In this document: positions 1 through 50,200 of the stretch, piece after piece
How the letters are laid out: each line of letters opens with the position of its first letter
How positions within the stretch are numbered: the stretch's first letter is position 1
From: Amoebophrya sp. A120
Taxonomy: Eukaryota; Protista; Dinoflagellata
Assembly: GCA_905178155.1 (NCBI GenBank)
Contig: CAJINV010000002.1
Coordinates: forward strand, 9,373,412-9,437,411
Reading direction: 5' to 3'
Length of the DNA stretch: 64,000 nt
Made by a program: the position numbers and the translations under genes
The notes under the pieces: generated by a model
What the model was told of the DNA's origin: nothing
The model's database searches: none
The model's input: only the letters and a program-made list of their open reading frames with translations

Positions 1-3000
1 CGATTCCGGATCCAAACTGGTCGCGGTCCGCCGCTGCGCAGGTGTTCCTCGAGATGACCTACGGCGGGCCGCAGAACGTGCGCGAGGCGCGGTCCAAGCT
101 GGGCCTGCCCGACTTGCCGATGAAGGGCACGCCGGTATCCGCCGACTTGAACAATGCGGATTCTATATCCTGAGTAAAAACCTACCCACACCAGAGTCAG
201 GATGGGGATTTTGCAACACAAACCTAGGAGTTTTGTGAGTCACGCATGACAAGTTGCACTATGCAGTGTAGTGCAGGTTAGCAAGTGCATCCGCATCACA
301 GATTCATCTGCTCATCCTGTTCACAGCATCACAAATTCCAAAACACGACTGGAAATGGCTCTCATGGGGATGCGCATTACAGGTCTTCCTGTCTTTGCAA
401 ATCTGCATTACAACTCTGGTGTGGGTACGTTTTTCCTCAGGATATTCTAGTGCGATGAAATCCCGCGTGGCCGTGCGGCCAAAGAACCATAGACTCCTGC
501 TATCAAATGCAAAAATGTCTGGGTCTGGAAGATTCCGAGACTTGTCATGCAGATTTCCATGATGCATGTCTTGTCATCTGGAATGCAGGACCTAGCATGA
601 CAGATTCTGCGGAATCCCTATCATGCTTATCCTGCATGAGAACCTTCTTCTCAACTTCGTCAAAAGTGGGCAACTTTTGGCATTCATGCAACACAGATTT
701 TTGCATGATCCAGAATTAGCATCACAAGCTCCAACCTTCCAGACCCAGACATTTTTACATTTGATACCTGCCCTTCCTCGACGAAAATGTCCTGCCCATC
801 GTCGCGGAGTTTCTGTTACCAAGTGCAAAAATGTCTGGGTCTGGAGGGATGCAACTTGTGATGCTGCATTTGGATTCCAGAAAAATCTGTATTGCATGAG
901 TAGCAAAGGGAATGCAATTTTTGCTACGCTGAGAAGGCATTTGTCATGCGGTATAGGCATCAGGAAGCCCTCGCAAAATCTGTGACGCTAGGGCATGCAT
1001 CACAGACATCAGGAGTCATGCAAAATGTGCATGACATCTTCGAGACCCAGACACTTTTGCATTTCATATCTGTTTGGCGGCAGCCTACTGCGGTGCATGG
1101 AAGTGTCTCCTTTGTGGTTTTGCTGCTTTCTGGACGTGCTGGACAAGTTGGCAAACCCGATCGACCTGGCCTTCAAAAACGTGATCGACGCCACCGGAAT
1201 ACTGCAGCTGGAGTACGCAAGGACGGACTGGTCGCCGCTGCACGTCTGCCAACCGGGCGTCAGAATAGACCGGGTGCTCATAGCCAAAGTGCTGCCCAGC
1301 TACGCGGGCCACACCGTCCGCCTGTCGTACGAGAGCGCGTATGAAAGTAAGTAGTTTCTTTTATGACCAATAGATACCAGAAGACTTTTTGACACTCTGT
1401 AGCGTCTTCTGACGCGTGTTGTTGGCATCCATGTATTTGTGTGTCAGCATGCGGGCCGCACTTTCGCAATCAATTCTTATTAGAGCGTCATGTTCCGCCT
1501 ATGTTCACGATTTTTGTCCCCTTTTCTTGCGATTGCAGAAAAGATGTCGTGAACTCTACAAAACGACAGCCGTTCCTTCGCAGCCGTATCTCCGGAAAGC
1601 CGAGCTAGCGATATGCACTGCAAAAGTATCGTACTCGTATACATGCATTACAAATTTCCTCAGCATGAGAAATAAAATTTGTAGTGCGGATTTACCTTGA
1701 GATAAAAATTTGTGATGCATGATTGCAATTACTACGAGTGCAATACTTTTGCACAGGATAAGCGAGCCAGATTTACGATTCCCACTTCCAGTTTGATATT
1801 TTCAGCGGAAGCAGGAACCTTTGGATCCACAAAGACATTTGCAGGTTCTTTTTTTTCGATTTCATGCTAAAGATAGAAGATAGATAGCAAGTGAATTGCC
1901 ATTTTTTTTATTTCTACTCTATGCCATGCAATGCAATGCCAATGCATGAATACGTCAAAACAGGTTCCACGGTGACGAGACCCGTGTTGCAGCCTTGCAG
2001 AACATCACGCCCGTTCGATATCCTCGGGGAAACTTGAGTCTTTTTTTTTGTGCATGTACTTGCTTTCTGTACTATGTTGAATGCGGTCCAATACTTCTAT
2101 CTGACGCACTGATTTCATTTGTGTTGGTTTGCTGCTCGATGTAGCTGGTACATCCACTGATGCTGCTCACTCTGCGTCTTTGCAATTTTAAGTGATGAAG
2201 TGTACACGGCAACAGAAAGTACTGACTCATCCTTTCTTCTCGTGGATACCGCCGTCGGCGACCGCATCGAGATTGCTGTGAACCTGTTCATATCCTGTGC
2301 AAAAGTATCGTACTCCTATTGCAATCCTTTTGTTAACGTAAATCCGCATTAATTTCTCATGCTGAGGAAATTTGTAATGCATTTATAAATACGAGTGCGA
2401 TACTGTTGCAGTTCATAGTTCAATGCATATGGAAAGACCGCGATAAAATCCATAAAGTGGAAACCGCCAAGGACTGCCTGGGCACCGAGCTTCCGGTAAA
2501 TAAATAAACGAATGTATGATCTATTGCCATGCACAAATAAGTGAAAGCATCCACCACGTTGCATTCTGTTCTTGATGTTGTCGGTGACGGTGTCAGTTGA
2601 TGAACAGAAAAGCAAAAGAAAAACATTAATTCACTATGAAAATCAGCTCCTGCCCGGTAGAAGAAGAACACGACGACTGGATGGATTTCGATTCCTTCGC
2701 CGCGAATTCAACGGAGCGGCTGCAAAACCCAAACTTCTTCGGGCCCCAGTTGCAGCATCGCTCCACGGAGTATGCTGGGTACTATGGAGATGCAACTGTG
2801 ATTTACTTACTTACTGAATTTGTATTGTTCGCGCCCCAACAAAAACTACGACTATTGGTACCGATACAATGAATATCATTCGTATGCCATGGCCATGATG
2901 ACTTGACTCTACTTGGTCTTCACTGCATAATCCAGAAAAATACCAAAAACTTCTCCAGCCTCGACGTTGCTACCAGCCGTTCCATTCTTCTCGCCAAAGA

Positions 3001-3846: not shown

Positions 3847-4950
3847 ATGCCATTCTTCGATCTACTCGGTCTCGGTGGTCATCACGACCTTCTAAGCGAC
3901 CACGCCAGTGCCTTGCACTCCAACTCCGGCCACGCAACCTCATTCGCGCGTATAATACCGTTCTTGTAATCGCGTTCTTGTATAATTTCCTAGGTAGTGC
4001 TGCGTAATATTGAGAAACTTTTCGCTCATGTTGTGATGCACGTCGAAAAATTTGAACGTAAGTACCAAAGGGAACCAACTGGCACAAAAAACTCACAACA
4101 GAGGACGGAAGTCTGGAATTTCGGGAATACTATGCGGCCGCTTGCCCCCACTGCAAGCATTTGGAACAACCCTGGCACACGGCGGAATCCCAATATCAAG
4201 GTACTGAACTGAAAGAGTGGCTCTTGCCAATCAAAACATTGATGAAATTCCTCTTCCATTTAGTACTACTAACTAGCCCAACGTCACATAGTACAAGCTC
4301 AAAAAAACCCTCTCCTCACAGGCCCGGTGAAGTGGACGCAGATTGAGTTATCAAATGTAAAAATGTCTGAGTCTGGAAGAATGCAAGATTTGTGATGCAG
4401 GTTTTCCATGACCCATGAGGTCTGGAATGCGAGACCTAGCATGACAGATTCTTTGAGGTCTCTATCATGCCTTTCCTGCATGAGAAACTCCCTCTCAACT
4501 TGGTCAAAAGCGGACGGCTTTTGGCACTCACGCAACACAGACTTTTGCATCATTTAGATTTAGCATGACCACAAGTTCTAATCGTCCAGACCCAGACATT
4601 TTTACATTTGATATGAGTGCAACGACGACAATTGGAACCCGGTTTCAGCCAACGTGGAGAAGTGCGCGCCAATTAGCGGGTTTCCGACCATGAAGATGTT
4701 CCAGGATGGGAAAGAGGTCGACGAGTACCACGGCGGGCGCACCGCGGACGACCTGCTGAATTACGTGAATAACTTCGACACCTCGAAGGTTTCCGCGCAA
4801 ACCATGTTACCGATGCTCCCCGCGGTCTTTGCGGCGAAGTTTCTCTTCGGAGAAGACACGACGAAGGAGGGGGAAGACGGAAAAGAAGAAGGAAAAGCTG
4901 TCTTGAAGAGCCCGGAAGTGCGCGTGGAGGACGTACAGAACTTTTTCTAG
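3847..4950 (+). CDS. Thioredoxin/PDI-like single-domain oxidoreductase (CPHC)
   Basis: Spliced product contains EYYAAACPHCKHLEQPW...GPVKWTQIECNDD...ISGFPTMKMFQDGKEVDEYHGGRTADDLLNYV, i.e. CxxC plus the cis-Pro GFPT motif. The start exon at 3847 is tentative. Confidence 0.8.
4349..4613. mobile_element. Introner-like TIR element, family A
   Basis: Family A TIRs, direct repeat TGAGT. Removal restores QIE-CNDD. Confidence 0.92.
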
Positions 4951-6098
4951 GCGAAGACTTCTATATGATAGGGAAGCGATTTCTTGGGTTTGGATCGTTA
5001 GCAAAACAAAGTTTCCCCACAAGTAGAACTACAACGACCTGGTGCGGATACAATAATCATGCCCTCGCCGATTGACAGTGATTGAGATTGAAGAAACGTC
5101 CTATAAATACGATTCGGAAACTACTTGGAATTAGTGTGTAGCGCATCATGGCTCGTCTCATTGTGATTATACAAACTAGAAATACCGAGTCTTCGAACTA
5201 ACTTTTTGAGGCAAACGCCTACCGAGCGTGAAAAGCTGATCTAGTTAATTTTGCTAGTACCTCCTGTGTCAATATTCCTTTTCGATTCTCAGGTGGAAAC
5301 GCTGCAACATCCAAGATGGTAGATTAATGTCGAAATCGATGTTGCAGCTGCAGTTTTGCATGTTGAGACAAAACAGAACTGTATGCGAGCTATCTTTGTT
5401 GAAGACAAACGAGTCCGACCTCGTAGAAAAGGCGAATAAGGATACATAGACCTCCGTTGCTTTGAGACAAGGCCGTGGCCATTGCCACAGGAAAGGAGCA
5501 GAGGGGGACAATTTTGTCTTCCAAGAGAAAACTATGTTGAAGCGAGCTATGTGCGCGCTTGTTACTTTCTTGAACTAACTTCTTGAGCTAGCTTTTTAAC
5601 TTATGCTTTTGCTTCTAACCTCCAGGCAGTTACCTTTACTTTTCGGCATGGTTTTCGTGTGTTCATGGCTAGCTGAAGGTTCTCGATTTTCCCGGGAGGG
5701 AGAGAAGTAGCAAGGAGTATGATTTCATTTTTTGGTTGCCGTGCTTCTTCGACGCTCATCTCTTCCTCGAGTGACGCGATGGTATAATGAGTGACGAGAG
5801 ACACACTGTGCTGCACTAGCGTTTTTTGGTTGTTCTTGCGTTCTTTCAGCCACCCCTGTTGCGGCATGATGAAGTAGTCCGCTCTGCGCGTACGCACGCG
5901 CTCGTGCTATAAATTCCTTAGAGCGCCGGAAGAGATGGAGCTGTCGGGTTTAACATAGTAGAGTTGTAGTGTAGAAGACGTAGCTGTCTACCACCGCGTG
6001 GGCGCGTCTCGTGCGCCGAGAAGCACTGTTCAACAGCGCAGGGTAAAGATACCAGTCTCCAACTTTGTTCCGGCATCATCTGACAGCTCAGTTCAAAA

Positions 6099-9000
6099 AT
6101 GTCGGCCGTGTCGCTGCTTCACGGCACCCTCCCAGGTGATTCTGCCCCGATCATGGCGCCTGACAACCTGCCCAGCTCGTGGTCACTGGCAGACACCATG
6201 AAGGCAGCACTCTCATCGACAGCCAACCAGCTTGTCCCCACGCCGCGCCGTCTCGCAACCCAGGCGCAGGTCCAGCAAAACCGCAACGCCATGCTTCTCG
6301 ACGAGAACGACCACGTTGGTGTCAGCTTTTGGCTGGTCGCATCCAGCATGTCGGCGTGCTCGGTGTTTTTCTACGTCCAGGCTGCTTTGGTGCCAAGGGA
6401 GTGGGCTGTGAGCATGCTGATTGCCGGGAGCGTCACCGCGGTTGCCTTATCAAATGTAAATATGTCTGGTTTTGGACGGATGCGAACTTGTGATGCTCGT
6501 GCTCCGTCGGGATTCTACAAAAATCTGTGTTGCATGAACAGCAAACGAGGTCCAGTTTTTGCTAATTGTTTGCGAGAGGGCATTTCTCATGCGGTATGTG
6601 CATCAGAAAGCCCTCACAAAATCTGTGATGCTTGGGCATGCATCACAGACATCAGGACTCATGCAAAATGTGCATGACATTCCAGACCCAGACGTACTTG
6701 TTTGCATTTGATATGCCTGGATCCAGTACGAAAATCAGAAGGACGTGTGGCAAGAGAGCCGCGAAGCACCTATCGTGGCCAGATATATGGACTGGTACTT
6801 AGGAGTACTAGTAAGTACTTGCAGCGGCAGCACTAATAGGGAACTTCAGTTTATACACACAACTTCGGTGCCGCCAAATACGAGTGAAAACCACAAAGCA
6901 TTAGCATATCACTTTGTGAACCCCCAGCAAAAAATGCAAGAAATAGCGATTTTATCTTTTCCGCACAACATTCTAAAACAGGATCATCACGGTGCCGCTT
7001 CAAATCCTGGAATTCTACATCCTTTTGAGCGTCGCAACTCCTCCAGATAAAGATCCGGTTAGCCTGGCTTTGTGCGCAAGATTAGTGGGCTCCGGCGTCG
7101 CCATGCTGGCATTCGGGTAAAAAAGAATGTCCTGAAGTTTTTGTTTGTTTCTGTGTCCTGCAAGGCCCAACGAACTTATTACTATGCTGGAGCGGCCTCG
7201 GCCACGGTCAGCATTACTAGAAGTTTCATGATTCTGAAGTGTAAGCAGGCTACCCTTCGTCTTCGCGAATTCATTTTGAAACAATAAATCCAGTTACATG
7301 GGCGAGACAGAGATCATGTCGCTCTGGCCGGCTTTCGTCACGGGATGCGCGTGCTGGCTGTACATTGTCTGGGAACTGTACTACGGGGAGGCAGCGGGTT
7401 TGGCAAATCAATTGTCTGTCGACGAAGCAAAGAAGTTCCTCCAACAGATGGAAGAGCGGGAACAGGCGGAATTGCGCGTAGCAGAGCAAGTACTGATAGA
7501 ACAGTCAAGGAAGGAAGAAGAAGCCGGTATAATCGTGCTTTTACTTATTTTGATTTTTGCTCTTGTGGGCTTTTTCCGTCGTGCTCGTGCTACAATTGGA
7601 TGATCAACGTGCAACAGTAATATGAGTACAGTAGCCTCCGCTATTATGGTGCGATAGTAGAGCTAAGAAAAAAGCAAATAAAAACTCTTCTGAATTAACA
7701 GAAGCGGAGAGGGAAAACGGCGCCCGACCTGGAAAGGATCTCGACACTTTTTTGACGACCGGGTCTCTTGAGGGTAATATGGTGCCTAAAGTGGGACCGG
7801 GGTCTGTGAGATGTTGCGCCTGAATTTTTTTGCCTACAAATGATGTCAGAGCGTGACACGATGAATAACTTTTCATGTATTGGAGATGATAATCTTTTCT
7901 TTGACACGAAAAGTAAAAGCACAAGTGATACGTATGTATTTCATTCTCTCCAGAAAATTCCCCCGTCCCTCAAAAACCCCTTCCATAACCGCACCAAAGC
8001 GCTCGAAGCCAGCACCAAAAGCAGTGGTGATCAAGCGAGACAAGTATCAGCTGGACGAGCGAGAATTTGTGAAGCCCATCGCCGAGCAAGCGTTTGACGC
8101 CTTGCGGATGATCTTTCTCTTCGGTTGGGCGATCTACCCGGCGAGGTAGGTTATGATTCATTTTGGGAGTTCTTTTCTAAGTAGGATATAATTCATTTTT
8201 TCTTCTTGCGCCATCTCGAGGGGCAGACGTAGGGCACGAAAATGTCCGAGGATCATGCTTGGTCGTGCAATTTCCCAATCATCTTGAAGCTATGTACGTC
8301 TACCTCTACCGCTCGTGAAAGAAACAGAAAATACAAATACCCCGTAGTTACGCGTGGTACCACCTCGGCGACGACGATAGCAAGGAGGACCGGTCAAATG
8401 CCATGAACGCACTGTACAATCTCGGCGATCTGGTGAACAAGATCGCGTTCGGTATTGCCGTCTACTCCGCCGCCGGCAGTGAGGAGCAAATGCAGAAGCA
8501 GATGGAGCACCGGGTCATCCGGTTGGAAATGCGCATCATGAAGGACTGGATGCAGCAGCTGAAGTCCATGGGCATCGTGCACCGGAAGTTCCGCGGCGAC
8601 TTGAAATCCTGGCTAAACCTGGACGGGGAGAGCCAACAGAGCCAGGCAAACAACAAGGAAGTCGGGGGCAAACCGCGGGTGGCGCCGCCGACGGGAAACA
8701 ACGGAGCGGGGGGTAGCGTCGTCGGTGGCTCCAGTTTAGTGGGCAGAATCGGACCCAGTGCGGCCACGAGCGGCGGCTTTGGCGCAGGGAAAGCAAATAT
8801 GATGAATCCACGTAAAAACAATGCTGCCTAATATACTTTTGCGTAGATGCAACAACTTGCTCAAGAATCACATGGTTGTACTTTAGGACTTCTAGAATTT
8901 TTACCTAGCATCTCCATGATCTCGCAGTGGAGGTCCTACTTAGCTCAAAAAAGAGGAAGTAGTGTCGACACATTGCTCTCGACAAGCAGCTATCTTTTCA

Positions 9001-13002: not shown

Positions 13003-16000
13003 ATGGAAGGCAAGTTTTTCTGCTTTTCTGAGCCTTCGCTCCACTTGACCCCGGCACCAGGTCGTAAAAATATTAAAGGAAGCAAAACAAAAAAGAAGCC
13101 TTTGAAAGGCTACAGCGCCGACATTGACGATGAATCCGAATTCCTCGACCACGAGAGCAGTTTATTTTCGCAAGAGCCTCCAGAGTTTGGAGAAACGAGA
13201 AATTTTGAAGGCGGTGCGCCCTCTGCCGCAGTGTTACAAGAACAAGATCAACATGCAGCTGCTCAAAATGACGACGGCTCTAATCATGCACGTGGACAAG
13301 AAACTACACGTACGGCACTGCAAGACGCCGACAACGGCACGCGAGACGAAAACGACGAAGGTGAACCGGAACCCCGTCAGCAACTACATAGTTCGAAAAG
13401 TAGGGTTTATTTCGACCTTCAAGGCGGCAGTTTTACACCGATCGGCAGAAAGACGAAGACGCTGCCGGATTTCACAGACAACCGATACAAGGATGGTGCG
13501 AACAAGCGACAAAACACCGCTATCTCACACCGACCGCACGCCACGGAGACGGGGGAGGATGTGGATGTTGTCCCCACGGCAAATTATATCACAGACCGCG
13601 CGCGAAGAACATACTCGAATCAAAACCTCGTGGCCCCTCTGAACAACTTTTCCAGTGACCACGATGACGCAGCTGCTGTTCGTCCCGAGGATATTGAACC
13701 GGACCACGAAAGAACAACGCGAGTTTCCAAAGTGGGTGTGGTATCGCCGAGAAGTAGCTCGACCTCTTCCTCGTCGGAGGGCAACAATCACGAGTTCGAG
13801 AACCTAGAGGATGAGTCTTTCGAGTTCGGGCACCTGTGCGGCAAGGGCGGCTCGGCGGAAGTCTACGAAGTAATGAATCGGAAGGGCGAGAAATTCGCCA
13901 TGAAAGTATGGATTGCAAATATGTCTGGGTCTGGAAGGCAGTAACTTGTGATGCTAAGTCTACACCCTGAAAAAATGTGTGTTGCATGACTGCCAACAGT
14001 TGTCCACTTTTGACCAAGTAGAGAGCGAGTTTCTCATGCAGGACCGGCATGATATAGATCTTAGAGAATCTGTCATGCCAGGTCCTGCATTCCAGACCTC
14101 ATGGGTCATGGAAAATCTGCATGACAAGCTCCCACGCTTCCAGACCCAGACATTTTTGCATTTGATAGAAAGTCGTGTCCGCCAAATCGACCCGGCAGTT
14201 GGAAGGCTTCCTGCAGGAAGTCCGGTTGTTGGAATCCCTGTCGTCTAAAACTGCTTCTAACGCTTGTGCGGCAACGGCAGGAGGTCGAGGTGGGAACAAA
14301 AATTGTGCGGTGGATTTGAAAATGACAAACCCAACGCCCGAAGAGGAGTATGAAGCGAAAGCGGAACTCCGGCGGCAGCGGAAGGAGATCCACCGGTGCA
14401 TCATTCGGCAGTTTGCGAGTCAAGCGTTTTACGAGAGCAAAAAGTTGTACATTTTGCTCGAGTACGCGGAGTGCGATTTCCACCACTATCGACAGGAAAA
14501 ATCCCCCCTCCCCATATCAAAACAGAATTTCTGATGCTGGATTTGTGTACACAAATCAGCTTTGCATTGCGGGAGCGCGTTCCGGCTAGATCCCCAGCCT
14601 AGGTAGGGGCGTATCGGTCTAGTTGCTCAGCATGGCAAACGGCTCCCCTTTGGGCCCAACAGCATGACAAATCGCTTCCATAATGGGGGCGAAGCTTCTG
14701 GCTTTGTCTTCTTGCAAGACAAATGCGATTTGTGACCTCAAATCAGCAGCGCAAATTTTCGGAAGCATGCCTTTTCGATGTGGGGAGGGGGATCTTTCCT
14801 CTTAATAACCACTACCTGAAATCCTTCGAGAAGGGGATGCCGCTCCCGGAACTGGTGCACAGTTTCCACCAAATCCTCCAGGCGGTGAAACTGATCCACT
14901 CCCACAACATCGTGCACTTTGACCTGAAGCCCGCCAATTTCCTGATCGTGAAGAACAAGATTAAGCTGTCCGATTTCGGCCTGGCCCGCCGCATCGAGTC
15001 CGACGCCACGCACATCAGCCGGAACGGGCACTGCGGGACCATCCGCTTCATGTCGCCCGAGGCCTTTTACCAGGCCGAGAACGCCAAGGCGGAAACGTCC
15101 ATGAAGCTGAAACCTAGCACGGACGTCTGGTCCCTGGGGATCATCCTGTACCTCATGCTCTACTCGCAGACCCCCTTCCAGCAGTTCGAGTCCATGCGGG
15201 GCAACCGGGTGATGTTTGCGATCGCGGACCCGCGGATGCGGGTGTTGTACCCCAAGTTGCCCGACCGGTTTCTCATTTGCACGAAAAGTCGCGTCCTCCC
15301 CCCGGGCTTTGACTACAAAAAAGAGGTGGAGGCCGGCAACTTCGACGTGGCGAACCGCTATCTTCAGGTTGGGGTGCTGCATGTCGTCGCGTTGCTACAG
15401 TACTGTCTCAAGCACGATGCGGAAGAGCGGGCCAGCTGCGGGCAGTTGCTGGACTACTGGTCCTATTTGCTGACGATTCCGTTAGGCCCGTCTTGTTCTA
15501 CTTGTTCTGTTGCGGAAACTGGTACCAGTACGACCCCCGCAGAAGTACCGGGCGGGGAGCAACCAGAACCCAAATCGCTCGTACAACTACCAACACAGCA
15601 TCAAAACGCGACCGCCTCGCAAAAAGTCCAGTTGTTAATGGAGAGAAGCGTTCATAATTCCCCAGATGAACGAACTGCAATCTTTGTGCAGCCGGCCCCA
15701 TTCCCGCAGGGCGACAAATTTGTGTCCTTCGACGACGAAGACGATCTGACGACAAACTACCACTCAAACTCCAGCGGCAGTGAAAACACTGTAAATGGCA
15801 CATCTGCGACGTCCGAGAGTAGAAGCCAAAATGCAAGTAACAGCACTGATAACAATTCTATGACTCTTGAACAATCGGGAAGAGAAGGGAACAAGACCAC
15901 AGCTGCAAGTTGCAGCGTCGGGGTCGGATCGAGCACCACTTCTACGTCAAGCAAGAAAAAGACCTTTTACGCGAAGATTTTTCGGGTGAAAAAGGGGAAA

Positions 16001-19000: not shown

Positions 19001-22000
19001 GCAGCTCCTGCTCCAGGCGGTGCTAGCAACGCCTTTCATCCAGCACAAGAAGCGCAGACACCCTTAGGTCCGGCGTGGTGGATGACGGCCAAGATCGTTC
19101 CCGCGATGAATCCCTTGCACGGTGTTTGGCCAGCAGTCCTTCGCAGGCTCCTGAAGGAAGGCGCGGCAGAGCCGGTAGTTTTGCAAGCGCTGCAGCGGCA
19201 CCTTCGAGACGCTTTGGAGTTGTCGGAGCTGAGCAACCTCTTCGAGGATCGGCATGATCTACGCCTGTTAGCCACGGCAGACTATGAGTGGAACAACCCG
19301 CATAGTCAGCGTCAGGAAGAGTTTCGGCGCGATTTTAAGGAAAAGCTTTTGGACAAAAGTGCCTCGGCCGTCCGCGGTTTGGTTAAAGCGATCTACCACA
19401 ATATTCGAAAAGAAAATTCGTTCTTCCGCGAGCACGCCGGTGGTAGAGTGGTGGATGAGTGCCTCAGTGTGTTGCAAGAAAAGCCTTCTAGCACACCGAC
19501 GCGAGCAACCGGTTCGGATGCAAGTGCAACTGAGAGGGAAAGAAGTGTACATGCAGCTCAAAATGCCGAAACAAGTAGCAGTTCCTCTTCTTCTCCTCCT
19601 CGAAGTGCAGCGCAGCTCAACGGGGCGCCCGCCGCGTCAGAAGATGGAACGCGACCAGGTGCTACGGAATCACTTTTGCTGGAGCCTGCGCTATTGCCCA
19701 ACCCGCGGAACCTCTTCGATGGGCGACAGATACTGCCCAAAACCAGGTTTCGAGCTAGTCGCGCAGAAGAGAGAGCCGCCCTCGAGGAGTTTTACACCAG
19801 ACCGGACTCCGCTCTTGAGAATCTGTCTGTCTTCAGAACAGGGTGGCACAAAGAAACAAAGAAGTGGGTTCTTCGACAAGCAGTGCGCAAGATGGTCCAA
19901 ATTATCGCAGGTGTGCGCGCGATCGTCGCCGGGTGGGTAAGTCCGATAAATCTGTTATCAGCAGCGAGTGCACCGCGGTCATATGCAGCAGCCGAGGCGG
20001 ATCCAGTCGCGCTGGCATTCTTTCTTTTCGGGTGCCCGATTCCAGAAGAACTCGCGCGAATAGAAGACCCGGTATATCTCGACGACCAGAACACTAGCGG
20101 AGAGGAGGAGGAGGAGGACGAAGATGCCACGCATTCTTCCCAACCGCAACGACCGGACAGGGTGGCAGTTGTCAAAAACAAATTCATGGAAACGGACACT
20201 GCCACGCATCCAGCATGGGAACTACCGCCCGTGAACGAGTTTGACGAGGACGCCTCTGAAGACAAGCACGCTTGCGCGGACCTTTACCACTACAATGCGC
20301 CGTCGCACCATCGTTCAATATTACATTTCCCCGATGCGCCCGATTGGACGCAGCGAGCGTCGGCCCTCCATCCGACTGTCGTCCGACACGGAAGGTGTAC
20401 AGTTTTGAAGAGGGAAAACCGAGGAAACGCTTTTTTCTTAAACCTTGACGGTGGTGCAGATGACGATGGTGATCGCGGCGGAGGTGGCAGTTCTCGGCGT
20501 GGCGGAAGTAGAGCAAACCACTTCAGATATGCTGAGGTGGGAACAACGACAACGACAACCTGGACGAGTCACGGGAATGAGACGAGAGAGGCCACCGCCG
20601 CGGAATTTCAGGCGAGCCTCGCGTCGTGGGTGGTCTTCCACTACCAGGGAGCGCACTGGTGGACCGACGGCATGGCGGCGCGGACGAATATCATTCCGGC
20701 GATGAATCCCGAACGCGGCCTCTGGCCCGCAATCTTCCGAGTCCTGTGCAACCACTCCCCAAGCGCCATGAGAGCGTATTTGGAAGTTGCGCGCGACAGC
20801 CTCGCAACAAGTAATAGTCCGGGACGGAGTGCTCCTGCCCGCGGAGATGCAGCTCCAGCAGTGGGGGTGAGTCCTTCATCCCTCTTGGCGACGGACGCAG
20901 AAGTGGCAGAAGCGCTTCGCGCAGCTCTCGACGGGGACTCTGCTGCACGCAACAATTCTAGTAGTACGCAAAATGTTGACGAGAATGATCGCGGAGGGGC
21001 CTTTGTTGGTAGAGGAACAACTTCCACGGTGAATCATCAGCAGGAAGTAGTAGAAGGACCGCAACCTACCACGTCACAGGCGCCGTCGGCAGGATCCTCT
21101 TCTACAACGCCATACATCAACCGACAGACTAGAATAGGGCAGCCTTTTTGCACTGCCGTCGCACGCGAGGTGCTGTCCGACGTTAGGGTGGTCCGGACAC
21201 TTTATCAAAAGGAAAAATCCCCCCTCACCATATCGAAACCGAAATTTGTGATGCTGTATTTCAGTACACAAATCGACTTATATTGCTAGAAGGCCAAAAG
21301 ACGCAGCTGCGGCATTAATTGCAGGCGATTTGTCATGCTGTTTCCCATTTCCAGCTGCCTCCTGTCATCCTGAAGATGCAAGGCTTTCCTACGCCACCCA
21401 GCACTACAGTCCGCTTCTTTTGCCTTCTAGCATGACAACATGATTTGTGGTCACAAATCATGCTACACAAATCTCCGTTCCAGTACGGGGAGGGGGGATT
21501 TTTCCTCTTAATACACTTGTGCGGCACGTGTACCAGCGGATCGCAAAGCATGCCCTCCTCGGGCGTATCAAATGTAAAAATGTCTGGGTCTGGAAGAATG
21601 CAATTTGTCATGCTAAATCTGAAGCATGCAAAAATCTGTGTTGCATGATTACCAAAAGTCGTCCAGTTTTGACCAAGTCGGGAGGCAGTTTCTCATGCAG
21701 GATAGGCATGGGAAAGATCGCACAGAATCTGTCATGCTATGTCCTGTATTCCAGACCTCATGGGTCATGGAAATTCTGCATGACAAATCGATGAAAATGG
21801 CTAAAAAGGGCTTCGTCGATCGATTGTGCCACTAGGGCCTTGTGTTCCGGCTATTCCGGATCGCAATCGATGGAGGGCGGGACCTGCACCGGCGACAGGC
21901 GCTACCCAACCAACCAACCCAATCGCGCATTCTTCCAGACCCAGACATTTTTACATTTGATAGGGCGCCACTCGCAGCAATGTCTAGCTAACGCCACGCA

Positions 22001-39800: not shown

Positions 39801-42485
39801 CTGGCGACGCTCGAAGACAAGAACTCTCGACGAATGCTCCGCTCGTGCGAAGCTGTGCCACGCCTTCTGCCTCGAAAAATGCGATGTTTCGAAATCCGCG
39901 CTATGTGTTCGAGCGAGCTGGCGGTACTCCACCGAGTGCAGCAGCAGACGAAGAACAAGCGACGGAAATAGAGGAGTACCACCTACTTGTGGACAAGCAG
40001 CCGACACTCGACGACTTTGTGGTGCTGCACGCGTTCCCCGAGGGCGTTCTCGCGGCGCCACTGTCCTTAGACGAAACCGTAAAAACTCCGCAGGCCGGGC
40101 ACGATCCCTTCGTGGATTGGCTTTTGGAACAAAAACAAACAAGGTCCGAAACAAGAATTACACCCAGAAACGAAGAAAGCCAAAGTATCAGTTCAGCGAG
40201 TAGCGCAAGAACGACGAGCGCCGGCGTTGCACCGGGAGAGGTGTCGCAAGCAAGCACAGAAACAGGTCCGGGAGGCAGCCCTGGAGGAGAGCAGCATCCT
40301 GCAACATCTTCTACGCTTCGGGCGTTCGGCGTCGTTGCAGCAGCTCCAACTGGCGCTGCACAAAGGAACGATCTTCCCCTGGCACAAGAACCCCGTGTGA
40401 CCGGGGAAGCGTTCGCTTCACTTCTGGCCGCACCAGAAGAAGCCGTTGCCGCAGTGGATGCCGGGCTTGCTGCAGCAACGGAAGAAGCCGCAGCCGTTCC
40501 TGTTTCTCGAGAACTACAGCCGTTTTTCGTCAAAGACCTGTTTGCCCACGAGCTAGCGACCGACGCACTGGCCGGGAAGCCTTCCCATCGCACCCAGTAC
40601 CCACTAGCCGAACTACCAGAATGGTGGCAGAATGACCCTCGTTTCCGGTTCCCTTCCGAAATCAATTCTATGCGTGACACTCGTCCTAAAAATATGCGTG
40701 ACGACCACCTGAGTCGCACACCGTGCGTTAGTTCCGGCTACTGGCTGGACCTCGCTCATCTTGGTTTCCGGGACAGCAGCGGACTGCAATTGCTGCCTCT
40801 CAGCGACTCGGAGAAAAGTCAGATGACAAAAGTCCAGCAGTACCGTCCGCACGGCCTGGTGTTCTTGCACCAACTGACAGTGGACCTCGTAGAGGGGCCT
40901 TGGGAAGATGAAACAATACCACTAGATGAAGATTCCGAGGAGGAGCAGGATATCAAATGCCAATGCGTCCGGGTCTCCTGGAAGGGTGGTGCAGACGTTT
41001 GTCATATTGTTCGTATTCGGTTACCCGAAACTTCTGGCATGCAAGCTCGTACACCATCATTCAAAATTGCACGTTTATTCACGAAGGCCTCTCAATGCCT
41101 AAAAGTAGAAATCCTCACGGCACGAACGCTCATCTCTTGCTGACACGATACCAGCAACAGCAACTTTTCCTTTTGCTGTGGATGCATGAAAGATGATCTT
41201 CGTGCGATGTAAAATGCACCGCCTTCCAGACGCAGACGTATTATTTGCACTGCATTCATCTCCAAGAAGAAGAACAATCGGAGCAGGAGGGAGACGACCA
41301 AAGTAACGTCTCTGCGTATGATGATTATGATGATGATGATGCTGCCTCTGAGAGAACCTTTGGCGCTGACTCAGTAGTGAGTGGCTCTGTGGAAATGCGT
41401 TTGATGCGTGTCAAGGTTCGCGGGTACTTTGACGTGCACTTTTGGGTCGAAGGCTACTACGATGAGGGGGCACCGCCTGCAGCAAAAAATTCTCCTGCTG
41501 AGTGCCCGACGACGTATCCTAACCAACCTGCCAGACCATCTTCGGATGATCATCTTCATCGAAAAACTTTCGTATGCCAGCGTGTGCTGAAATTCCTATT
41601 TCCATGGAGCCCGCCGGAGGATGATGTTTATGCACTGCGGACATGTCTGGGTCTGATCAGATGCAAGTTTGTCATGCTGGCTGTGGAAATCGATGATTTT
41701 TATCCTGCGCGAGGTATGGCCTCGGTCTAGAAAAGGCCCATCCGTTCGGTCCTTCGTAGATAGTCCCACATCGGGGCTCGCCAATATGTATAGGCGTGGG
41801 GATACCCGGTCGGCAAAGAGCACTACAGCCGCTCAACCGATGATGATGATGAGCAGCAAGAAGTGGCCATGTATGTTCTTCTTGATCTTGTTTCCGTTTA
41901 TTATAAGAAAAAGCGATTACTCATATTTTGATTTTCTCGTGATCGTGTGTGTGGCAAGTGGGCATGAACGAAGGGTGTTTTCGAAGCCTTTTGCTATGTT
42001 TCTGAGCGCATCACAGATGACCATTGCCACCTGCGTGTTTCGAAACCTGCATCAAAAAGAACCGCACTGGTCCAGACTAGGACATTTTTCCACCTGATCA
42101 TTTTGTGCGGCCCAACGAACTGCCTATTGATGTTGCGAACGAATTGCGGGACTCGGTCGACGCATGGCGCAACGAGAAGAACGTCCTGTCGATACCTTTT
42201 TTGTGGGCGAACCGTGTGGACAAGAAATACGAGCGCTGGTGGGATTATTTGCGTTCGCGCAGCGAACAGGGAGACTGGGACCGGTGGCTCAACGCCGAAT
42301 ATTTCACACCGGGGGTAAGAGACATGACCGACGGCGCAACGCTAAGTTTCAAAAAACTCGCTGGCCACCGGCAGTGGAGGTGCACCTTTCCGGGCCGCAG
42401 AATGGAGGTGTTGCAGCGGGCGACTGACCAAGGCCACGACATCGCGGCTGCAGTGGACGGAGCGCCCGTATCTTCTGCTCCCTAA
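24808..42485 (+). CDS. Second giant Mps1/TTK-like kinase with transmembrane helix (~5481 aa)
   Basis: IGKGGSAEVY, YAMKVV, VVHFDLKPANFL, KLSDFGLAKAI, (GT-AG intron 29380-29584) CGTWRYVAPEA, DIWSLGVILY..TPF..LFAITDP. TM helix LIVFGSIIGAFVLVSVVLLVVLALHF at ~31154-31230. Frame continuous after removing three TIR elements. Confidence 0.82.
26042..26270. mobile_element. Introner-like TIR element, family F
   Basis: TATCCAACAAAAAAAGATGGTAGGTGTAA ... TTACACCTACAATCTTTTTTTCTTGGATA, direct repeat TCTGC. Removal joins ORFs 24808 and 26098 (GSL-PTFA). Confidence 0.9.
40951..41262. mobile_element. Decayed family A element
   Basis: TATCAAATGCCAATGCGTCCGGGTCT ... CTTCCAGACGCAGACG, flanks CAGGA/CAAGA. Removal restores EEQ-EEEQS. 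Right boundary approximate. Confidence 0.7.
41629..42099. mobile_element. Decayed, enlarged family A element (471 bp)
   Basis: TATGCACTGCGGACATGTCTGGGTCTG ... TCCAGACTAGGACATTTTTCCACCTGATC, flanks ATGTT/ATTTT. Removal restores DDV-VRPNE. Confidence 0.72.
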
Positions 42486-43663: not shown

Positions 43664-46234
43664 ATGACGGAAGCAGAAGCTGCGGTCTGCAGGAGGACTT
43701 CTGCAGCGAAAAAGTCGCGCTTGTGTTTCTCTTCGTCCATTGCAGTACTACGGAATTTCTCAGGAATTGCGCTGCTCGTTACTGCTTCGACGTCCACCAT
43801 ATTAATCACGACCGCGAGACCTACACGTCGAGGACTAGAAGCGAAGAATGCTCTCTCGTCCTCCTCGGTCACTGTCACCCCGCCGCAGCCTGAGTGGACG
43901 CAATGGTTCGAGGTATGCATTGTAGAGATGCCTGGGTCTGGAAGATTGCAAGACTTGTGCTCCTGCTGTGCTGGCGCGACTGCGATAGATAGGCGTAAAT
44001 AGGACCTCTCGCCTGTCATGCAAAAAGGCAGGAAGCGGAGCACAAATCACATAGCGGCTCAAAAACTTGTCGTGCTACCTCTTGGTAGCGTAATATTGCA
44101 GGGTGGCCGTCACTTACTCTTTACAAGCTTTCTTCATGTACAACAATATTCCAAACCTAGACACATTTCAATTCCATTCGGGGTGCCCGTCGACCACTTC
44201 GACGACGCGGCGGACCGCCCGAGTTTCAAAATCAAGGTCCTGGGCCTCTCGAAATTCGCCGCAAAGACCGGCCCGATCTTTTTCTACTCGGGGAACGAGG
44301 GCAGCATCGGGGGTTTCTGGAATAACACGGGTTTACCTTTCTCCTGGGCCGCGGAGTTTCAGGCCGACATCGTGTTTGCCGAGCACCGCTACTACGGCTC
44401 CTCGCTGCCCTTTGGCGACAAGTCGTTTGACAGCCCGGAGCACATGCAGTACCTGCGCGTCGAACAGGCGATTGCGGACTACGCGAGATTCATGGAGCAG
44501 TACAATACAGAAAACAAGAAGGTCGTGGTAATGGGCGGCAGCTACGGGGGCATTCTGGCTTCCTTGATGCGGCAGAAGTACCCCACCCTGTTCCACGCGG
44601 CCATCGCCGCCAGCGCGCCCATCCCGCAAGCCTTTAACCTCAAGACGGAAAGCGACAACCAGATGACCTTCTACGAGAGCGTCACGCACTCGGCCAAACA
44701 GGTGTCCCAGACCTGTCCGGGCTTCGTGCGCCAGGCCTTTCAAGAGCTGGAAACCGCCTTCCAAGCAGCTGCGCGACGAACAAGCAGGAGCGCTGGTGTT
44801 GAGGCAACTAGTACTTCATCGAGGCCAACTGAAAGTGAAACCGCGACGACCACTACACTGGACGAGATCCGGAAAAAGTTCCAACTGTGCCAAAACAGCC
44901 TCAAGCCGTCGGAGTGGAGTCATTTCATGCAGTACGCGCGCAACGCCTGGACCGAGATGGCCATGTGCGACTACCCCTACGCGACCGACTTTCTCGCAAA
45001 GCTCCCCGCCTGGCCGATCAAGAAGGCCTGTGAACTCGTTGACGCCGGGGGCAAAAGTGGAGATCCCGTCCAGGGCCTGGCCGATGCCGTGGCCTTGCCG
45101 TACCAGAGTGAGCCAGGTAAATAGTACCCACTCAAATTGTGGCCGGCAGCAACAGATTGATACATCTGTCGCTATTGTCTTCAGAAAAAGCTGCAGGCAC
45201 TACAACGCAGATAACTATCATAACCAGGATGAAGAAAAAAGCGATAACAAATCATCTACTCTATAACTCCTTCGAGGTACCTGCCTCGACATGTACAAAC
45301 TATTTGTCGAATGTGCGGACCAAACCGGGTGTGGCACGGACAACGACGCAAAAGCTTGGGACTACCAAATGTGCGCCGACATGAACATCGTGGTAGCGAG
45401 CGACGGCGAGAAGGACATGTTTCCCAAGAGAGACTGGACGCTGAAACATTTGGAAAACTACTGTGTGAAAAAATACAACGTCCTGCCCCGACCCACCGAC
45501 ATGGCGGTGCGGCTTGGCGCGTATTTTGTGCTTTTTTTATGAATATATGTTTATGTGCTTTTGTGACTGTCTCCTCGGTGTAAGAATAGACATTAACCTC
45601 ATCGTTTATGTGCTTGTTTGATTACGTTCGTATGAATGTTGTAGGACACCTCTGTCTCTAATGTGGTGTCAGACAAGAATGACGGCTGGGACCGCGTGTT
45701 GAAGTGGATGAAGCACGAAACTCACCAGCAGCTTGCAAATTTGATCTGTCTTCAGGCAGAAGTGAACTTGTCCTTGATTTTTTCAAAACACCTCAATAAA
45801 GGTACCACTTTGACACGCAGGGAGCTGGCAGTATCTCCAACATCATCTATTCCAATGGGCTGCTGGACCCGTGGCACCCGGGCGGCTACTTACAGAATTT
45901 AACCGACTCCGTGGTTGCCCTGATCATTCCGAATGGCGCACACCATCTCGACTTGCGGTTGCCCGATGAAATTAACGACCCGGCGGATGTGGTGGGTGTG
46001 AGACTGCAAGAGAAAAAACTCGTGAAGATGTGGCTGGGTAGTAGTACAGCGGAGAAGCAGGACATTAGTGATGGGAGCATCAATATTGCCAAAGAGCCCG
46101 AGCGGCCCCTCGTTGGCGGAATTTCGACTGACGGGCATCGGAGGCGAGGCGACGAGCGACAGCATCAAGTCCTCGATGAGAAAGAAAAAATACAGGATGA
46201 GGACATCGACAACAAAAGCATATTCTTCGTGTAA
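43664..46234 (+). CDS. Peptidase S28 family (lysosomal Pro-X carboxypeptidase / dipeptidyl peptidase II-like)
   Basis: WFEVPVDHF, GPIFFYSGNEG, VFAEHRYYGSSLPFG, GGSYGG (catalytic Ser), MCDYPY, SNIIYSNGLLDPW (Asp) and GAHHLDL (His). Start codon tentative. Confidence 0.9.
43914..44178. mobile_element. Decayed family A element
   Basis: TATGCATTGTAGAGATGCCTGGGTCTGGAAG ... TTCCAAACCTAGACACATTTCAATTCCATT, flanks CGAGG/CGGGG. Removal restores WFE-VPVDHF. Confidence 0.8.
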
Positions 46235-47204
46235 TTTTACCGGCCACTGTTGTGTTTCTGTTTCTCGTCCAAAGTATTTTTTTTGCAGATCTCCGGCCGC
46301 GACTCCGAAAAACAAAAACTTGCCATCTGCACGTCAGCATCGCTAAAGATGATCTTGCTCGCCATATTAGTCGGGTGCTGCTTACAACTCGCTTCATTTT
46401 GCTTGGTCAGCCACTGCACTCCTGTGCACGACCTGATCGATATGCTTTTTCGCGAACCCACTTCTTGCACGACTCTCGCGCGCTCTTATTCACGCAGATT
46501 TTGCAGAACGAATACTTTCGCAACCACGAATTTCTTGAATAGTAGAAGCAAAATAAAATCCTGAGACGCATCAGCCGATGAATGTTAGCCTCGTACTTGG
46601 ACCACTACGTGACATGTTCGCTTCCATCTTCATACACACGTCGTACATTGTCAGCAGGTATCGCTGAACGAAAATGCCCACGACGACAAGGCACGACCTT
46701 GTTGACCTTTATTGCACGAGGCCCGCGACCAATGCTCTATACATAGCCTTGAGTGTGCAGATCACTATCACTTGCTGAAATGTTTCTCAAGGAAGAAGAA
46801 GAACATGAACTTGAACAGCACCATCATTATACTTAGTCATGGGACTTTCTTCCCAAAACGAGTTGAATTCAAGAATTGGTGATGACACGACAAGGCGCAA
46901 GTAGGCATAAACATGAGATAAATGTTGACATTAAGAAAAATGGGTGCCAACTAAGATCTGACAAGCCGCAAGATGCCTTCAGATCCTGCTTTTTTGGAAA
47001 CGCACTAATAGCGTCGCTCCATGGCTCCTCTAACTGACTCTCATTCTTGTTCGATCAGTTTGTGTCCACAAACCTACTGTATCATATCTCTTTCCTAGTC
47101 CCGAATAAAAATTTCGCTTGTCGCCATATTCTAATTACTTTGAAACTACTACTGTTACCTCCTGAATCACCTGTAGAAGCAAGTTCGAACAAACTTCCTT
47201 AACC

Positions 47205-50200
47205 ATGACCTCCCCGTTGTCCACCGGTCCAGCCACCGCGTTCCTGCGCCAACTACCCGTCGCAGCGAAGGAGGGGGGTGTGCTCGTCACCCGTGACAAT
47301 TTTGACCGGCTGAAGCCTCTGAAGAACTTTGACGAATTGTTGGCGCAGGCGAGCGATGATATCCCGGCTTTTGACGTCAAAGCCTTTCAGGAGGTGAACC
47401 AGCTGTCGGACGAAGCTGCTGACAGTAACAAAACGAAAAGCAAGAATAAAAGCAGTGACTTCTCTTCGGTGACTGCTCCTCATGAGCTCAATTCATCTCT
47501 CCAGCGGGCCATTCGGGACGCTTCGGGCGGCGGCCCTGCTGCGCAGCCGACTCTTGTCCGTGGGGCGAAGAAGAACCAAAACAAGCCAAAGAGGACTGTG
47601 AACGGCAAGCCAGTGAAAGAGATCTTGGACAATATAGCGAAGAAAAATCAGCAAGCAGGCGCTGCGGGCCAGATCGATTTTTGCGGAGTTACACTCGCAG
47701 CGAATAAAAATAGTAGTGCGTTTCATAAGAACACGCCAACATTTTTATCGTAAGGAAAAATCCCCCCTCCCCATATCGAAAACGTATCCGTCTGAAAATT
47801 TGCGATGCGCATTTGCGACCTCAAATCCTGTCTGTCTTGCAAGAAGGCAAGTCCAGAAAGCGTTCCGCATTTTGCAGGCGGTTTGTCATGCTGTTTGGCT
47901 TAGAGCATACACGTTTGTCATGCTAGGCGCCTACGTCAAAACCTCTCGACTGAGGCTTGACATATGCCTGCACTCCTCTACTGCAAGACAAATCTGATTT
48001 GTGTATGGAAATCCAGCATCAGAAACTTCGTTTCGATATGGGGAGGGGGGATTTTTCCTTTTGATAATTTTACCGCGTCACGCCGGACCATATTCTCCTG
48101 GACACGCATATGGATGTGTCAGGATCGAAATCGACAAAATCGAAATAATTTGTGATGCATAAAATGTAGGACACTGAAGGCCTGCATTGGGGAGCAGGCA
48201 AATGAGACCGATTGCAAGCCTGTTTAGGGAGAGGCGATATGCTGCCAGAGTAGCACGACAGGAGCAACCTTCTTTGCCCAAACAGCATGACAGACTGGAT
48301 GTGGGTGCTCCCGGAATTTGTCATGCGCCACTTGGAAACTGAGGCTCCAACTGGCATCGATTTTGTGCGTCACAAATTTTTCGACTTTGTCCATTTCGAT
48401 TCTGACACTTCCATAACGCAGCTGGAGCGTGCCAGGAAGGCCGTAGCGACGGTGGAAGAAAAACAGAACCTCGCGAAACAGTTGCGAGAGGAAAAGAAGA
48501 GTACAAAAAATTCGAAAGCGGGAGTTCTTGCCCATAGTAGTACGAAGGAGAAGAACTCGCATCAAGATGAACTGGCCAACTTTGCAGAGATGTGGCGCGC
48601 GCGCGACAAGGCCTTGACGGAGCTCGAGGAACTCGGAATGCTCGACGGCGAGGAGTTGTTGCGCAAAGCAGACCGGCCCGAGTATTCCTACTACAACGGA
48701 GCAACGATGATGGGAGGTGGCATTCCGATAGCGCCTGGCCAGAAGCCTGCTTCCGCGGAGGATGGCAAAAACCCGAGTCGGCTGTTCTCGTACGCGCTGA
48801 ACTTCAAGCGGATCGAGGAGTTGTTGTCCAACGAGGCCCTCCGATTGCAGGACCGCCTGGACGCCATGGAAGAGAAGCAGATGCAGCAGTCCGATGAAAC
48901 CGAGGGGGGAGTCAACGCGCTGCTGCCCTCCCTTAGCGTGGAGGTGCGGACCCTCGTGGGCGACCTGTGCTTCCACATGAAGCAGGCGGCCTTCACGGAG
49001 ACCAATGGGGTCTACCACGAGAAGAACTACACCGATAGTGCTGCCACAACCCCGGCCGCGGCGGGAAACAAGAGAAAGGATAAAGCAACATCCCGTGCTG
49101 AGGATCTTCACGCGTCCGCGGGGAGATCTTCGCCAACTTTTAGCGACAGCACGACGACCAAGACTGGCACAACTCTAGTGAAGAAGGCAAAGCAAGTGAA
49201 AACCATCACGCTGGCAGACTATTTCAACCACTCCGTCGAACCGCACGCCCACACAAAAGCGCCGCGGCGCGCCGACAAAATGAGCTTGGACGTGGAACTG
49301 CAGCATTTTACCCGCGTCAGCCTCGAAGAAAAACTTTTGAAGCTGTTCGAGATCCTGCTGTGTGGGCGTGAGGGCATTTTGGAATTGGCGGAATTCGCGA
49401 TGACAGCTACTACGGGCGAACAAACCTCCACGCAGGTGCAAATCACGAATGGGAACAAGAATGATGACGTCGCATCCGGGAGTTCCTCCTCTCGCAGCCC
49501 CTTCTTCTCTCCTCCATCCCGCAGCACCCCGGGTTCGCAAGCAGATAATAACAGCCCTCTCGAGGGCAGCATAGTCAAAATCAGAGGAAAATTCCCCCAC
49601 ATGCTGCCAACCCCAACCACGGAGGACCGCCGCGCGCAAGAAACGAATTTCAGTGACGCGTCTTTGAAGCTGGAGGACTACTGGGACATTGGGGTGGCGC
49701 AAACGACCGCGTTTCATGACGTGTTGATCCGCCTGGTCGCAAACTACTTTTCCGATCTGGAGCAGCAGAAGCGCGATGTGGCCGCTACTTCCTCCAAGAA
49801 GAACAACAAACCTAACTTCCTCGACTACCACGTGAACGACACGATTGACGCGCTGAACCGCCAAACTATGAACAGTCGTCTCTCAGTCTCCGAAAAGTGT
49901 CGCAAGGACTTTGCGCGGCGGGGAGAAGGTCTCGCGACCGCGAGCTTGCTGACGTCGGGGTTGCTGCACCTGTTTTTGTTGCACGACGCAGTGGTGCGGA
50001 AAATGATTCAACCCGCTCGGTGCTTGAGCGCCAGAAAAGAACCGTGTATCAAATTGAAGGAGTCGAAGGACAAAGGCATCGGCAAGAATGGCAAGAAAAG
50101 CAAGTCCTTCGAACGGATGGAAGTTCCTCCCCCGGATCTGAAGAAACTGAAAACGGGTGACTTGTTCCGCATTGTATCAAAAGTAAAAATGTCTGGGTCT

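What the first reader, a model, noticed from the sequence alone, without database searches (positions are those of the whole stretch)
244..48326. Unrelated element families share one grammar: TAT-N7-AAAA ends and repeated TTGT(C/G/A)ATGC boxes
Seen: families A, B, C and D all start TAT + 7 nt + an A-tract, although their TIR cores differ. Families A-F carry multiple copies of TTGTSATGC/GCATSACAA or close variants: 244-252 and 326-334 (B); 542-550 and 719-727 (A); 1645-1653 and 1710-1718 (C); 14662-14670 and 21246 (D); 48150 and 48318 (E); 26074 (F). In the A, D and E copies checked, the first box lies 41-43 nt from the left end. Inference: a common trans-acting factor (transposase, or the excision/splicing machinery) reads this box at fixed spacing, making it the candidate recognition code of the system.
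Basis: partly seen in the sequence, partly recalled or inferred. Interest (0 to 1): 0.78.

Follow-up and report, generated by a model that had tools for sequence, protein, structure and literature searches.

The report
Helically spaced box in transposon introns
Small transposons that act as introns in a marine parasite's genes carry repeated copies of one 9-base motif, mostly spaced by whole turns of the DNA helix; the motif decays in old copies while the element ends are kept, so it likely marks where the still unidentified protein that moves them binds DNA, rather than being a splicing signal.

Summary
In detail: 37 TTGTSATGC boxes against 1.3 expected; 35 lie in 26 elements covering 11% of the window. 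The elements match the published Amoebrophya-type A120 introners (Farhat 2021), including the TAT+7 nt+AAA ends, so that half is known. I did not find the internal box in print; this scan noted it and its phasing earlier on other DNA (e1-10626161). In 325 elements (window plus a related assembly), 12 of 13 families carry TGTCATGC in most members. Spacing is not one fixed 41-43 nt: inward boxes sit about 32, 42, 54 or 63 bp from the end (best period 10.5), and same-orientation boxes are 29-33 bp apart in 11 of 13 families. Boxes lie on either RNA strand (565 v 546), do not pair across the hairpin, and decay with age almost like the target duplication, while TAT does not. Elements that have lost all or their subterminal boxes are still cut out precisely. 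Best reading: subterminal binding sites for a transposase, as in hAT elements, separate from the splicing signal. The protein was not found. New variant of a known kind.

The parts
166..444 (.). Family B element; target duplication (TSD) TTCTA; six boxes, all in one orientation (incl. 244, 326)
   Evidence: excision with two neighbours opens ORF 3-1351; RNA not tested
501..766 (.). Family A element; TSD CCTGC; boxes at offsets 41, 94, 187, 218
817..1068 (.). Family A element in the opposite orientation, same gene; left end TAC; TSD TCTGT
1612..1760 (.). Family C element; TSD AGCGA; first box reversed at offset 33
2291..2417 (.). Family C element, shortened; TSD GTTCA
4349..4613 (.). Family A element; TSD TGAGT; upstream of a thioredoxin-domain exon
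6448..6713 (.). Family A element; TSD TGCCT
13907..14167 (.). Family A element in a protein kinase gene; TSD GAAAG
14487..14807 (.). Family D element in the same kinase gene; TSD ACCAC; boxes 143/175 are 32 bp apart
21203..21513 (.). Family D element; TSD CACTT; first box at offset 43
21566..21962 (.). Family A element with about 140 nt extra before the right end; TSD GGGCG
22715..22950 (.). Diverged family A element; TSD TTCCT
26042..26270 (.). Family F element; TSD TCTGC; first box at offset 32
40951..41256 (+). Old family A element; TSD CAGGA/CATCT; no subterminal boxes left; RNA-type contig pins the cut between TSD bases 4 and 5
   Evidence: (loose end at 41261)
41629..42099 (+). Old family A element; TSD ATGTT/ATTTT; skipped as 476 nt
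43914..44178 (+). Old family A element in a peptidase S28 gene; both subterminal boxes lost; skipped as 270 nt
47746..48066 (+). Family D element; TSD ATTTT; first box at offset 54; skipped as 326 nt
48109..48415 (+). Family E element (no AAAA tract); TSD ACGCA; boxes 48150, 48318; skipped as 312 nt
50175..50426 (+). Family A element, short form with first box at offset 32; skipped as 257 nt
50494..50799 (+). Family E element; skipped as 311 nt
50887..51037 (+). Family C element; skipped as 156 nt
55635..55887 (-). Family A element; skipped as 258 nt
56222..56482 (-). Family A element; skipped as 266 nt
56710..56845 (-). TAT..ATA element with no box above background (best score 8.2 bits), yet skipped precisely as 141 nt
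58737..58937 (-). Element of a further family; diverged TSD; skipped in raw RNA reads
   Evidence: (loose ends 58735, 58939)
59723..60090 (-). Family D element; skipped in raw RNA reads
   Evidence: (loose end 60091)
60171..60431 (-). Family A element; skipped in raw RNA reads
   Evidence: (loose ends 60177, 60432)

Best explanation
The TTGT(C/G/A)ATGC box is a repeated, helically spaced motif shared by nearly all families of these TAT...ATA transposon-introns, and it is likely the double-stranded DNA binding site of the protein that moves them, most likely one transposase acting in trans, not a splicing signal. Inferred mechanism: several DNA-binding domains of a multimeric transposase would dock on boxes on one face of the helix, 3-6 turns from the end and 3 turns from each other, and set the catalytic core on the TAT ends, which are cut and inserted with a 5-bp stagger. 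Only copies with intact, phased boxes found new copies, so boxes survive across families; after insertion they drift. Removal from RNA is a separate step that depends on the ends: the transcript loses the element plus five bases, cut one base before the opening TAT and four after the closing ATA.
For: Shown: (1) 44-fold enrichment over 449 kb of non-element sequence and 37 v 1.3 in the window. (2) An unbiased k-mer ranking puts the box first: TGTCATGC in at least half the members of 12 of 13 families, GCATGA in 13 of 13. (3) 324 of 364 box columns but 530 of 1080 other interior columns are at least 80% conserved in 10 families. (4) 16 of 31 same-orientation pairs within 70 bp are 29-33 bp apart, in 11 of 13 families; 0 of 5000 random placements reach 16 in any 5-bp window; the linkers look mostly unlike each other. 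(5) Inward boxes nearest the end fit period 10.5 best (R 0.81, phase 0.1, p 0.0004; 11 families). (6) Both orientations on the RNA strand, 565 v 546, with elements inserted both ways in all 10 families (264 of 359 copies strand-called). (7) Across age bins set by TIR-core mismatches, box mismatch rises 0.038 to 0.108 and TSD mismatch 0.042 to 0.170, while TAT stays at 0.010 to 0.005; slopes 0.30, 0.36, 0.02 (362 copies). (8) 56710-56845 (no box), 43914-44178 and 40951-41256 (no subterminal boxes) are still removed. (9) The variable box letter is not matched between the two ends (0.26 v 0.46 expected, 86 family-A copies). Established: hAT transposases bind scattered subterminal repeats whose phasing to the end is critical (PMC10368747, passages); a MITE's subterminal motifs are bound by a related transposase (PMC1636448, abstract); hAT5 families make 5-bp TSDs (PMC12730594, passages).
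Against: No transposase or autonomous element was found: four TAT..ATA spans of 481-1104 nt in the loci, none with an evident transposase frame (not scanned against Pfam). Farhat et al. report no putative transposase in A120 and argue against general transposase mobilisation (section 16). The reverse-orientation boxes near ends are not significantly phased (p 0.12). For same-orientation pairs a 10.5 period fits no better than 14-16, because one peak dominates. Family-A offsets are 32 or 39-42, a 7-10 bp step. Boxes decay somewhat more slowly than TSDs mismatch, so a weak host-level constraint is not excluded. Families may share deep ancestry (6 of 78 pairs keep residual similarity), so they are not fully independent. 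The box-less spliced case is n=1, from contigs of one sample whose RNA status is a guess.
Confidence: 0.66

Rival explanations
1. The box is bound on DNA by a host factor (transcription or chromatin protein) that the elements recruit to bend or synapse their ends or to reach open chromatin; the transposase itself reads only the family-specific TIR cores.
For: All DNA-level evidence fits equally well. TIR cores differ between families while the box does not, which could mean several transposases and one shared host cofactor. A host factor regulating a transposon through its TIR is reported for ProtoRAG (PMC7481187, search listing only).
Against: The box is rare outside elements (2 of 37 in the window; 0.15 per kb in background that still holds missed copies), which is not the pattern of a general host binding site. 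All families share TAT ends and 5-bp TSDs, which points to one catalytic specificity.
Confidence: 0.16
2. The box has no current function; it is inherited from one ancestral element built of 32-bp subterminal repeats.
For: Residual similarity between some families, e.g. D and E; boxes decay after insertion.
Against: Boxes stand as conserved islands within each family while neighbouring columns vary, and 32-bp spacing persists with dissimilar linkers; neutral descent would erode boxes and linkers alike.
Confidence: 0.1
3. The box is an RNA signal read by a modified spliceosome, an snRNA or an RNA-binding protein that defines these non-GT-AG introns.
For: Nearly every element has it (1 of 264 strand-called copies had none); U1 was not detected in A120 (PMC7789003), so another recognition route is needed.
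Against: No strand preference; 33 copies show only one orientation on the RNA strand, 20 one way and 13 the other; decay with age while TAT is kept; box-less and box-poor elements are removed precisely; DNA-helix spacing; absent from three GT-AG introns checked.
Confidence: 0.08

Closest known systems
Introner elements of Amoebophrya sp. A120 (Farhat et al. 2021, PMC7789003; Gozashti et al. 2025, PMC12130899)
   Same: Non-GT-AG introns with terminal inverted repeats starting TAT + 7 nt + at least 3 A, short direct repeats (5 bp in Fig. S19 legend), many families; length classes here (109, 149, 209, 252/262, 279, 307, 322 nt) match TIR-DNA families listed for A120 in the 22 of 58 supplementary rows seen.
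   Different: Neither paper, in the parts seen, describes an internal shared box, its helical spacing, a strict 5-bp duplication with a fixed cut, or the different fates of box and TAT in old copies.
hAT superfamily subterminal repeats (Hermes STRs bound by BED domains; hAT5 with 5-bp TSD)
   Same: Short repeats in both orientations inside the ends, asymmetric between ends, phasing to the end matters; 5-bp TSD occurs in hAT5.
   Different: The box is 9-12 bp rather than 4; shared by families with unlike TIR cores; no transposase identified, so superfamily membership is open.
MITEs mobilised in trans (Emigrant/Lemi1, PMC1636448)
   Same: Non-coding TIR elements whose subterminal motifs are bound by a transposase encoded elsewhere.
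   Different: Here the elements sit in coding exons and are removed from RNA.
Ginger-like or integrase-type TIR elements (A120 family 38 in PMC12130899)
   Same: TIR elements of the same genome with integrase-like frames; a 5-bp stagger is typical of such enzymes (recalled).
   Different: Not shown to share TAT ends or the box; its sequence was not seen.

Membership tests
Amoebophrya A120-type introner elements | Terminal inverted repeat starting TAT + 7 nt + at least 3 A | tested here: met
   Most ends of A-D and F; three families lack the A run at that register
Amoebophrya A120-type introner elements | Short direct repeat at the exon/intron boundary | tested here: met
   Exact 5 bp in 22 of 27 window elements; 261 of 378 profile-found copies perfect, 359 with at most 2 mismatches
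Amoebophrya A120-type introner elements | Removed from RNA without GT-AG | tested here: met
   10 of 10 elements inside window 41000-57400 skipped by length+5 in X3-X5; one more by a loose end; three by loose ends of raw RNA reads X10; 13 of 27 not tested
Amoebophrya A120-type introner elements | Repeated, in families | tested here: met
   13 families of 2-166 members among 325 elements
Amoebophrya A120-type introner elements | Host is Amoebophrya | tested here: inconclusive
   Best named homologues of one window protein are dinoflagellate (Ceratium, Symbiodinium, Polarella); genus inferred from the match to the published grammar and length classes; no genome held
hAT superfamily (hAT5 type) | TSD of 8 bp, or 5 bp in hAT5 | tested here: met
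   5 bp; not unique to hAT5
hAT superfamily (hAT5 type) | Subterminal repeats in both orientations, phased to the end | tested here: met
hAT superfamily (hAT5 type) | hAT DDE transposase with BED finger in an autonomous partner with the same ends | tested here: inconclusive
   No autonomous partner in about 0.6 Mb examined; whole genome not available
hAT superfamily (hAT5 type) | Transposase binds the repeats | not testable with these tools
   needs biochemistry
U2-type (GT-AG) spliceosomal introns | GT..AG ends | tested here: not met
   Joint table lists GT..AG only for the three ordinary introns; 40951-41256 is cut as AT..TC

The most novel reading that the evidence does not exclude
One unidentified transposase moves all the TAT...ATA introner families of this genome by reading a portable code, phased TTGTSATGC boxes plus TAT ends, largely ignoring the TIR core, so that any DNA that acquires phased boxes between TAT and ATA becomes both mobile and self-removing from RNA: an intron factory with two separable codes, boxes for DNA mobility and the end letters for non-GT-AG splicing.
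Probability: 0.35. Interest if true: 0.8.

Novelty: new variant of a known kind. Interest (0 to 1): 0.52.

Why it matters
Farhat et al. counted 29,850 such introns in A120 and left both their mobiliser and their splicing route open. A shared, helically phased box gives a bait for finding the mobilising protein and a signature for finding its autonomous element. The contrast between boxes that decay and TAT ends that persist separates what a copy needs to move from what the host needs to splice it, which narrows the search for the non-GT-AG splicing signal to the few terminal letters. Subterminal transposase sites as such are well known, which limits the surprise.

Tried and rejected
Whole genome: none held. 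Family-A end in viral contigs: 0 matches. Run search: no RNA holder listed; X9 and X11 had almost no or no reads on the stretches laid, so they are no test. In one search the DNA-like run swamped the joint table; only loose ends were used. Idea that TAT-N7-AAA is itself a terminal copy of the box (TAT-GCATSAC-AAAT): fits a few families but the family-weighted terminal profile does not match at positions 6, 8, 9 and 13; rejected as a general rule. Idea of an alternating 16-bp lattice of boxes: seen in only 2-3 of 13 families; rejected as general. Box-box pairing in the RNA hairpin: not supported. Search for a long autonomous element in loci and window: none. Literature: six searches; the motif-string search returned 332 papers, of which the 15 listed were unrelated. 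snRNA complementarity was not tested, since the A120 snRNA sequences are in figures that could not be seen.
Full report
Observation. All cited coordinates hold the box or a one-letter variant. TTGTSATGC occurs 37 times in the window against 1.30 expected, and 35 of these lie in 26 curated elements covering 10.8% of it; a 27th, older element (40951-41256) was found later by profile. A finder that asks only for an exact 5-bp flanking repeat and inverted ends, not for TAT, gave 20 hits at 19 or more of 25 matches, 19 TAT..ATA and one TAC..ATA; the same finder at 18 of 25 gave 1 hit in 279 kb of shuffled sequence. Removing element plus five bases opens long frames, e.g. 47166-51749 across five elements and 12973-22286 across four.

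What the elements are. Farhat et al. 2021 (PMC7789003; seen: abstract, passages, sections 12 and 16, supplement searched and part 2 of 5 read, no figures) describe introner elements of Amoebophrya A120 whose inverted repeats start with TAT, seven less conserved bases and at least three A, with 3-5 nt direct repeats. That half of the finding is therefore published. The best named homologues of a window peptidase are dinoflagellate, and element lengths match A120 TIR families in the supplementary rows seen from PMC12130899 (passages and 22 of 58 A120 rows; two supplementary files not searched). RNA-type contigs X3-X5 (one sample; RNA status a guess, but they also skip three GT-AG introns) skip all 10 elements inside 41000-57400 by exactly length plus five; raw RNA reads of X10 show three more by loose ends; DNA-like contigs of X1 run into the element ends. 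Five elements with diverged duplications agree on one cut, between duplication bases 4 and 5, and 40951-41256 pins it alone; earlier scan notes say the same.

A larger sample. One metagenome-collection scan with a family-A end gave 169 loci (the 66 listed are contigs of one assembly, prefix JACKZZ01; family A is over-represented by design, so cross-family counts are weighted or made per family). Of 323 candidates, 285 had TAT at both ends; 303 within one letter of TAT were kept and 20 dropped. With 22 window elements this made 325 elements: 13 families of two or more (313 members) and 12 singletons.

The box is the shared feature. Ranking all 6-8-mers by the number of families in which half the members hold them puts the box first: GCATGA 13 of 13, TGTCATGC 12 of 13; TTGTSATGC is 44-fold enriched over 449 kb of masked background, about 35-fold without family A. 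The family-weighted profile is (A)AWTTGT(C>G,A)ATGC(A). It is more general than the A tract, which three families lack at that register (0 of 62 ends). Within 10 families, 324 of 364 box columns and 530 of 1080 other interior columns are at least 80% conserved (box columns were chosen by consensus match, which favours them slightly). With boxes and ends masked, 6 of 78 family pairs keep short similarity, so families are largely but not wholly unalignable.

Spacing. Per family consensus, the inward (TTGT-first) box nearest an end lies at 31-33, 40-45, 54 or 63 bp; over periods 9-16 the best fit is 10.5 with phase 0.1 (R 0.81, p 0.0004 against uniform offsets of 30-47, one per family). Same-orientation boxes are 29-33 bp apart in 16 of 31 pairs and 11 of 13 families, unmatched in 5000 random placements, with mostly unlike linkers. 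Opposite-orientation pairs cluster at 33-35 one way (6 families) and 46-50 the other (5 families). Against: reverse boxes near ends are not significantly phased (p 0.12); family-A offsets step by 7-10 bp.

DNA signal or RNA signal. (a) Strand: for 264 of 359 copies whose host strand could be called by codon usage, all 10 families are inserted both ways (family A 65:42, p 0.03 uncorrected), boxes read 565 times one way and 546 the other on the RNA strand, and 33 copies carry one orientation only, 20 v 13. (b) Pairing: the variable letter matches between the two end boxes in 0.26 of 86 family-A copies against 0.46 expected, and 40 of 113 copies have different offsets at the two ends. (c) Age: 378 copies were found by family profiles without asking for intact ends or duplications; 362 were kept, 16 with doubtful ends dropped. 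Overall mismatch is 0.054 at boxes, 0.058 at TIR cores, 0.073 between the duplications and 0.014 at TAT. From the youngest to the oldest TIR-core bin, boxes go from 0.038 to 0.108, duplications from 0.042 to 0.170, TAT from 0.010 to 0.005 (same pattern with other bins). Duplication mismatch sums an intronic and an exonic site, and profile search favours copies with intact boxes, so this is near-neutral decay of boxes; weak constraint is not excluded. (d) Cases: 56710-56845 has no box above background and is skipped at the same contig depth as its neighbours; 43914-44178 and 40951-41256 have lost their subterminal boxes and are skipped. Three GT-AG introns hold no box.

Mechanism. Shown: shared motif, conservation within families, helical spacing, no strand preference, decay after insertion, precise removal by length plus five. 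Inferred: a protein binds the boxes on double-stranded DNA during mobilisation; most likely a transposase supplied in trans, as for Hermes, where BED domains bind scattered subterminal repeats and a one-base shift impairs cleavage (PMC10368747, passages), and for the Emigrant MITE (PMC1636448, abstract). hAT5 families make 5-bp duplications (PMC12730594, passages), so hAT is a lead, not a filing; an integrase-like TIR family in A120 (PMC12130899) is another. No autonomous element was found in the sequence held, and Farhat et al. report no transposase in A120, although unchecked scan notes mention long hAT-like elements in this genome. Splicing likely rests on the terminal letters and perhaps the hairpin, not on the box.

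Novelty. Elements and terminal grammar are known. The box, its phasing and its decay pattern were not found in six literature searches or in the parts read of PMC7789003, PMC12130899 and PMC12005148 (passages); figures such as Fig. 3, S19 and S25 of Farhat et al. could not be seen and might show it. The scan has noted the box before on other DNA. What this window adds is the test that separates a mobility role from a splicing role. Verdict: real, new variant of a known kind, interest 0.52.

Noticed in passing
window 53450-55250: A+T-rich stretch (GC 0.30-0.38) without RNA-type coverage, with an internal duplication of about 170 bp and a perfect 50-bp palindrome at 54917-54966.
   Followed up: no
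window 45115-45276: A GT-AG intron whose junction carries a 5-base repeat, like the elements' duplications, but no TAT ends or box; possibly an old insertion turned canonical.
   Followed up: partly
window 6084-7047: Frame interrupted by element 6448-6713 contains a RYMDW stretch reminiscent of microbial rhodopsin helix C (recalled); Pfam on the first exon alone gave nothing.
   Followed up: partly
window 12973-22286 and 24778-41140: Two neighbouring very long protein-kinase genes on the + strand, one with an unbroken frame of about 3,800 codons.
   Followed up: no
L021 505-1608: 1.1-kb element with E-like ends, a perfect TSD and many boxes in the left arm (first at about 41, next 32 bp on), filled with simple repeats; no evident transposase frame.
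   Followed up: partly
L063 2011-2333: A different TIR element (ends TTGGTTAAC..., flanking repeat TAATA) that does not follow the TAT rule.
   Followed up: no
L027 3606-3787: Tandem array of a 17-bp near-palindromic unit.
   Followed up: no
window 4031 and 12694: The only two exact boxes outside catalogued elements; no inverted ends found around them.
   Followed up: no
264 strand-called copies: Mismatches in TAT differ by end in transcript orientation: outermost base 1 at the 5' end v 8 at the 3' end, as expected if the 5' T is the second intron base (small numbers).
   Followed up: partly
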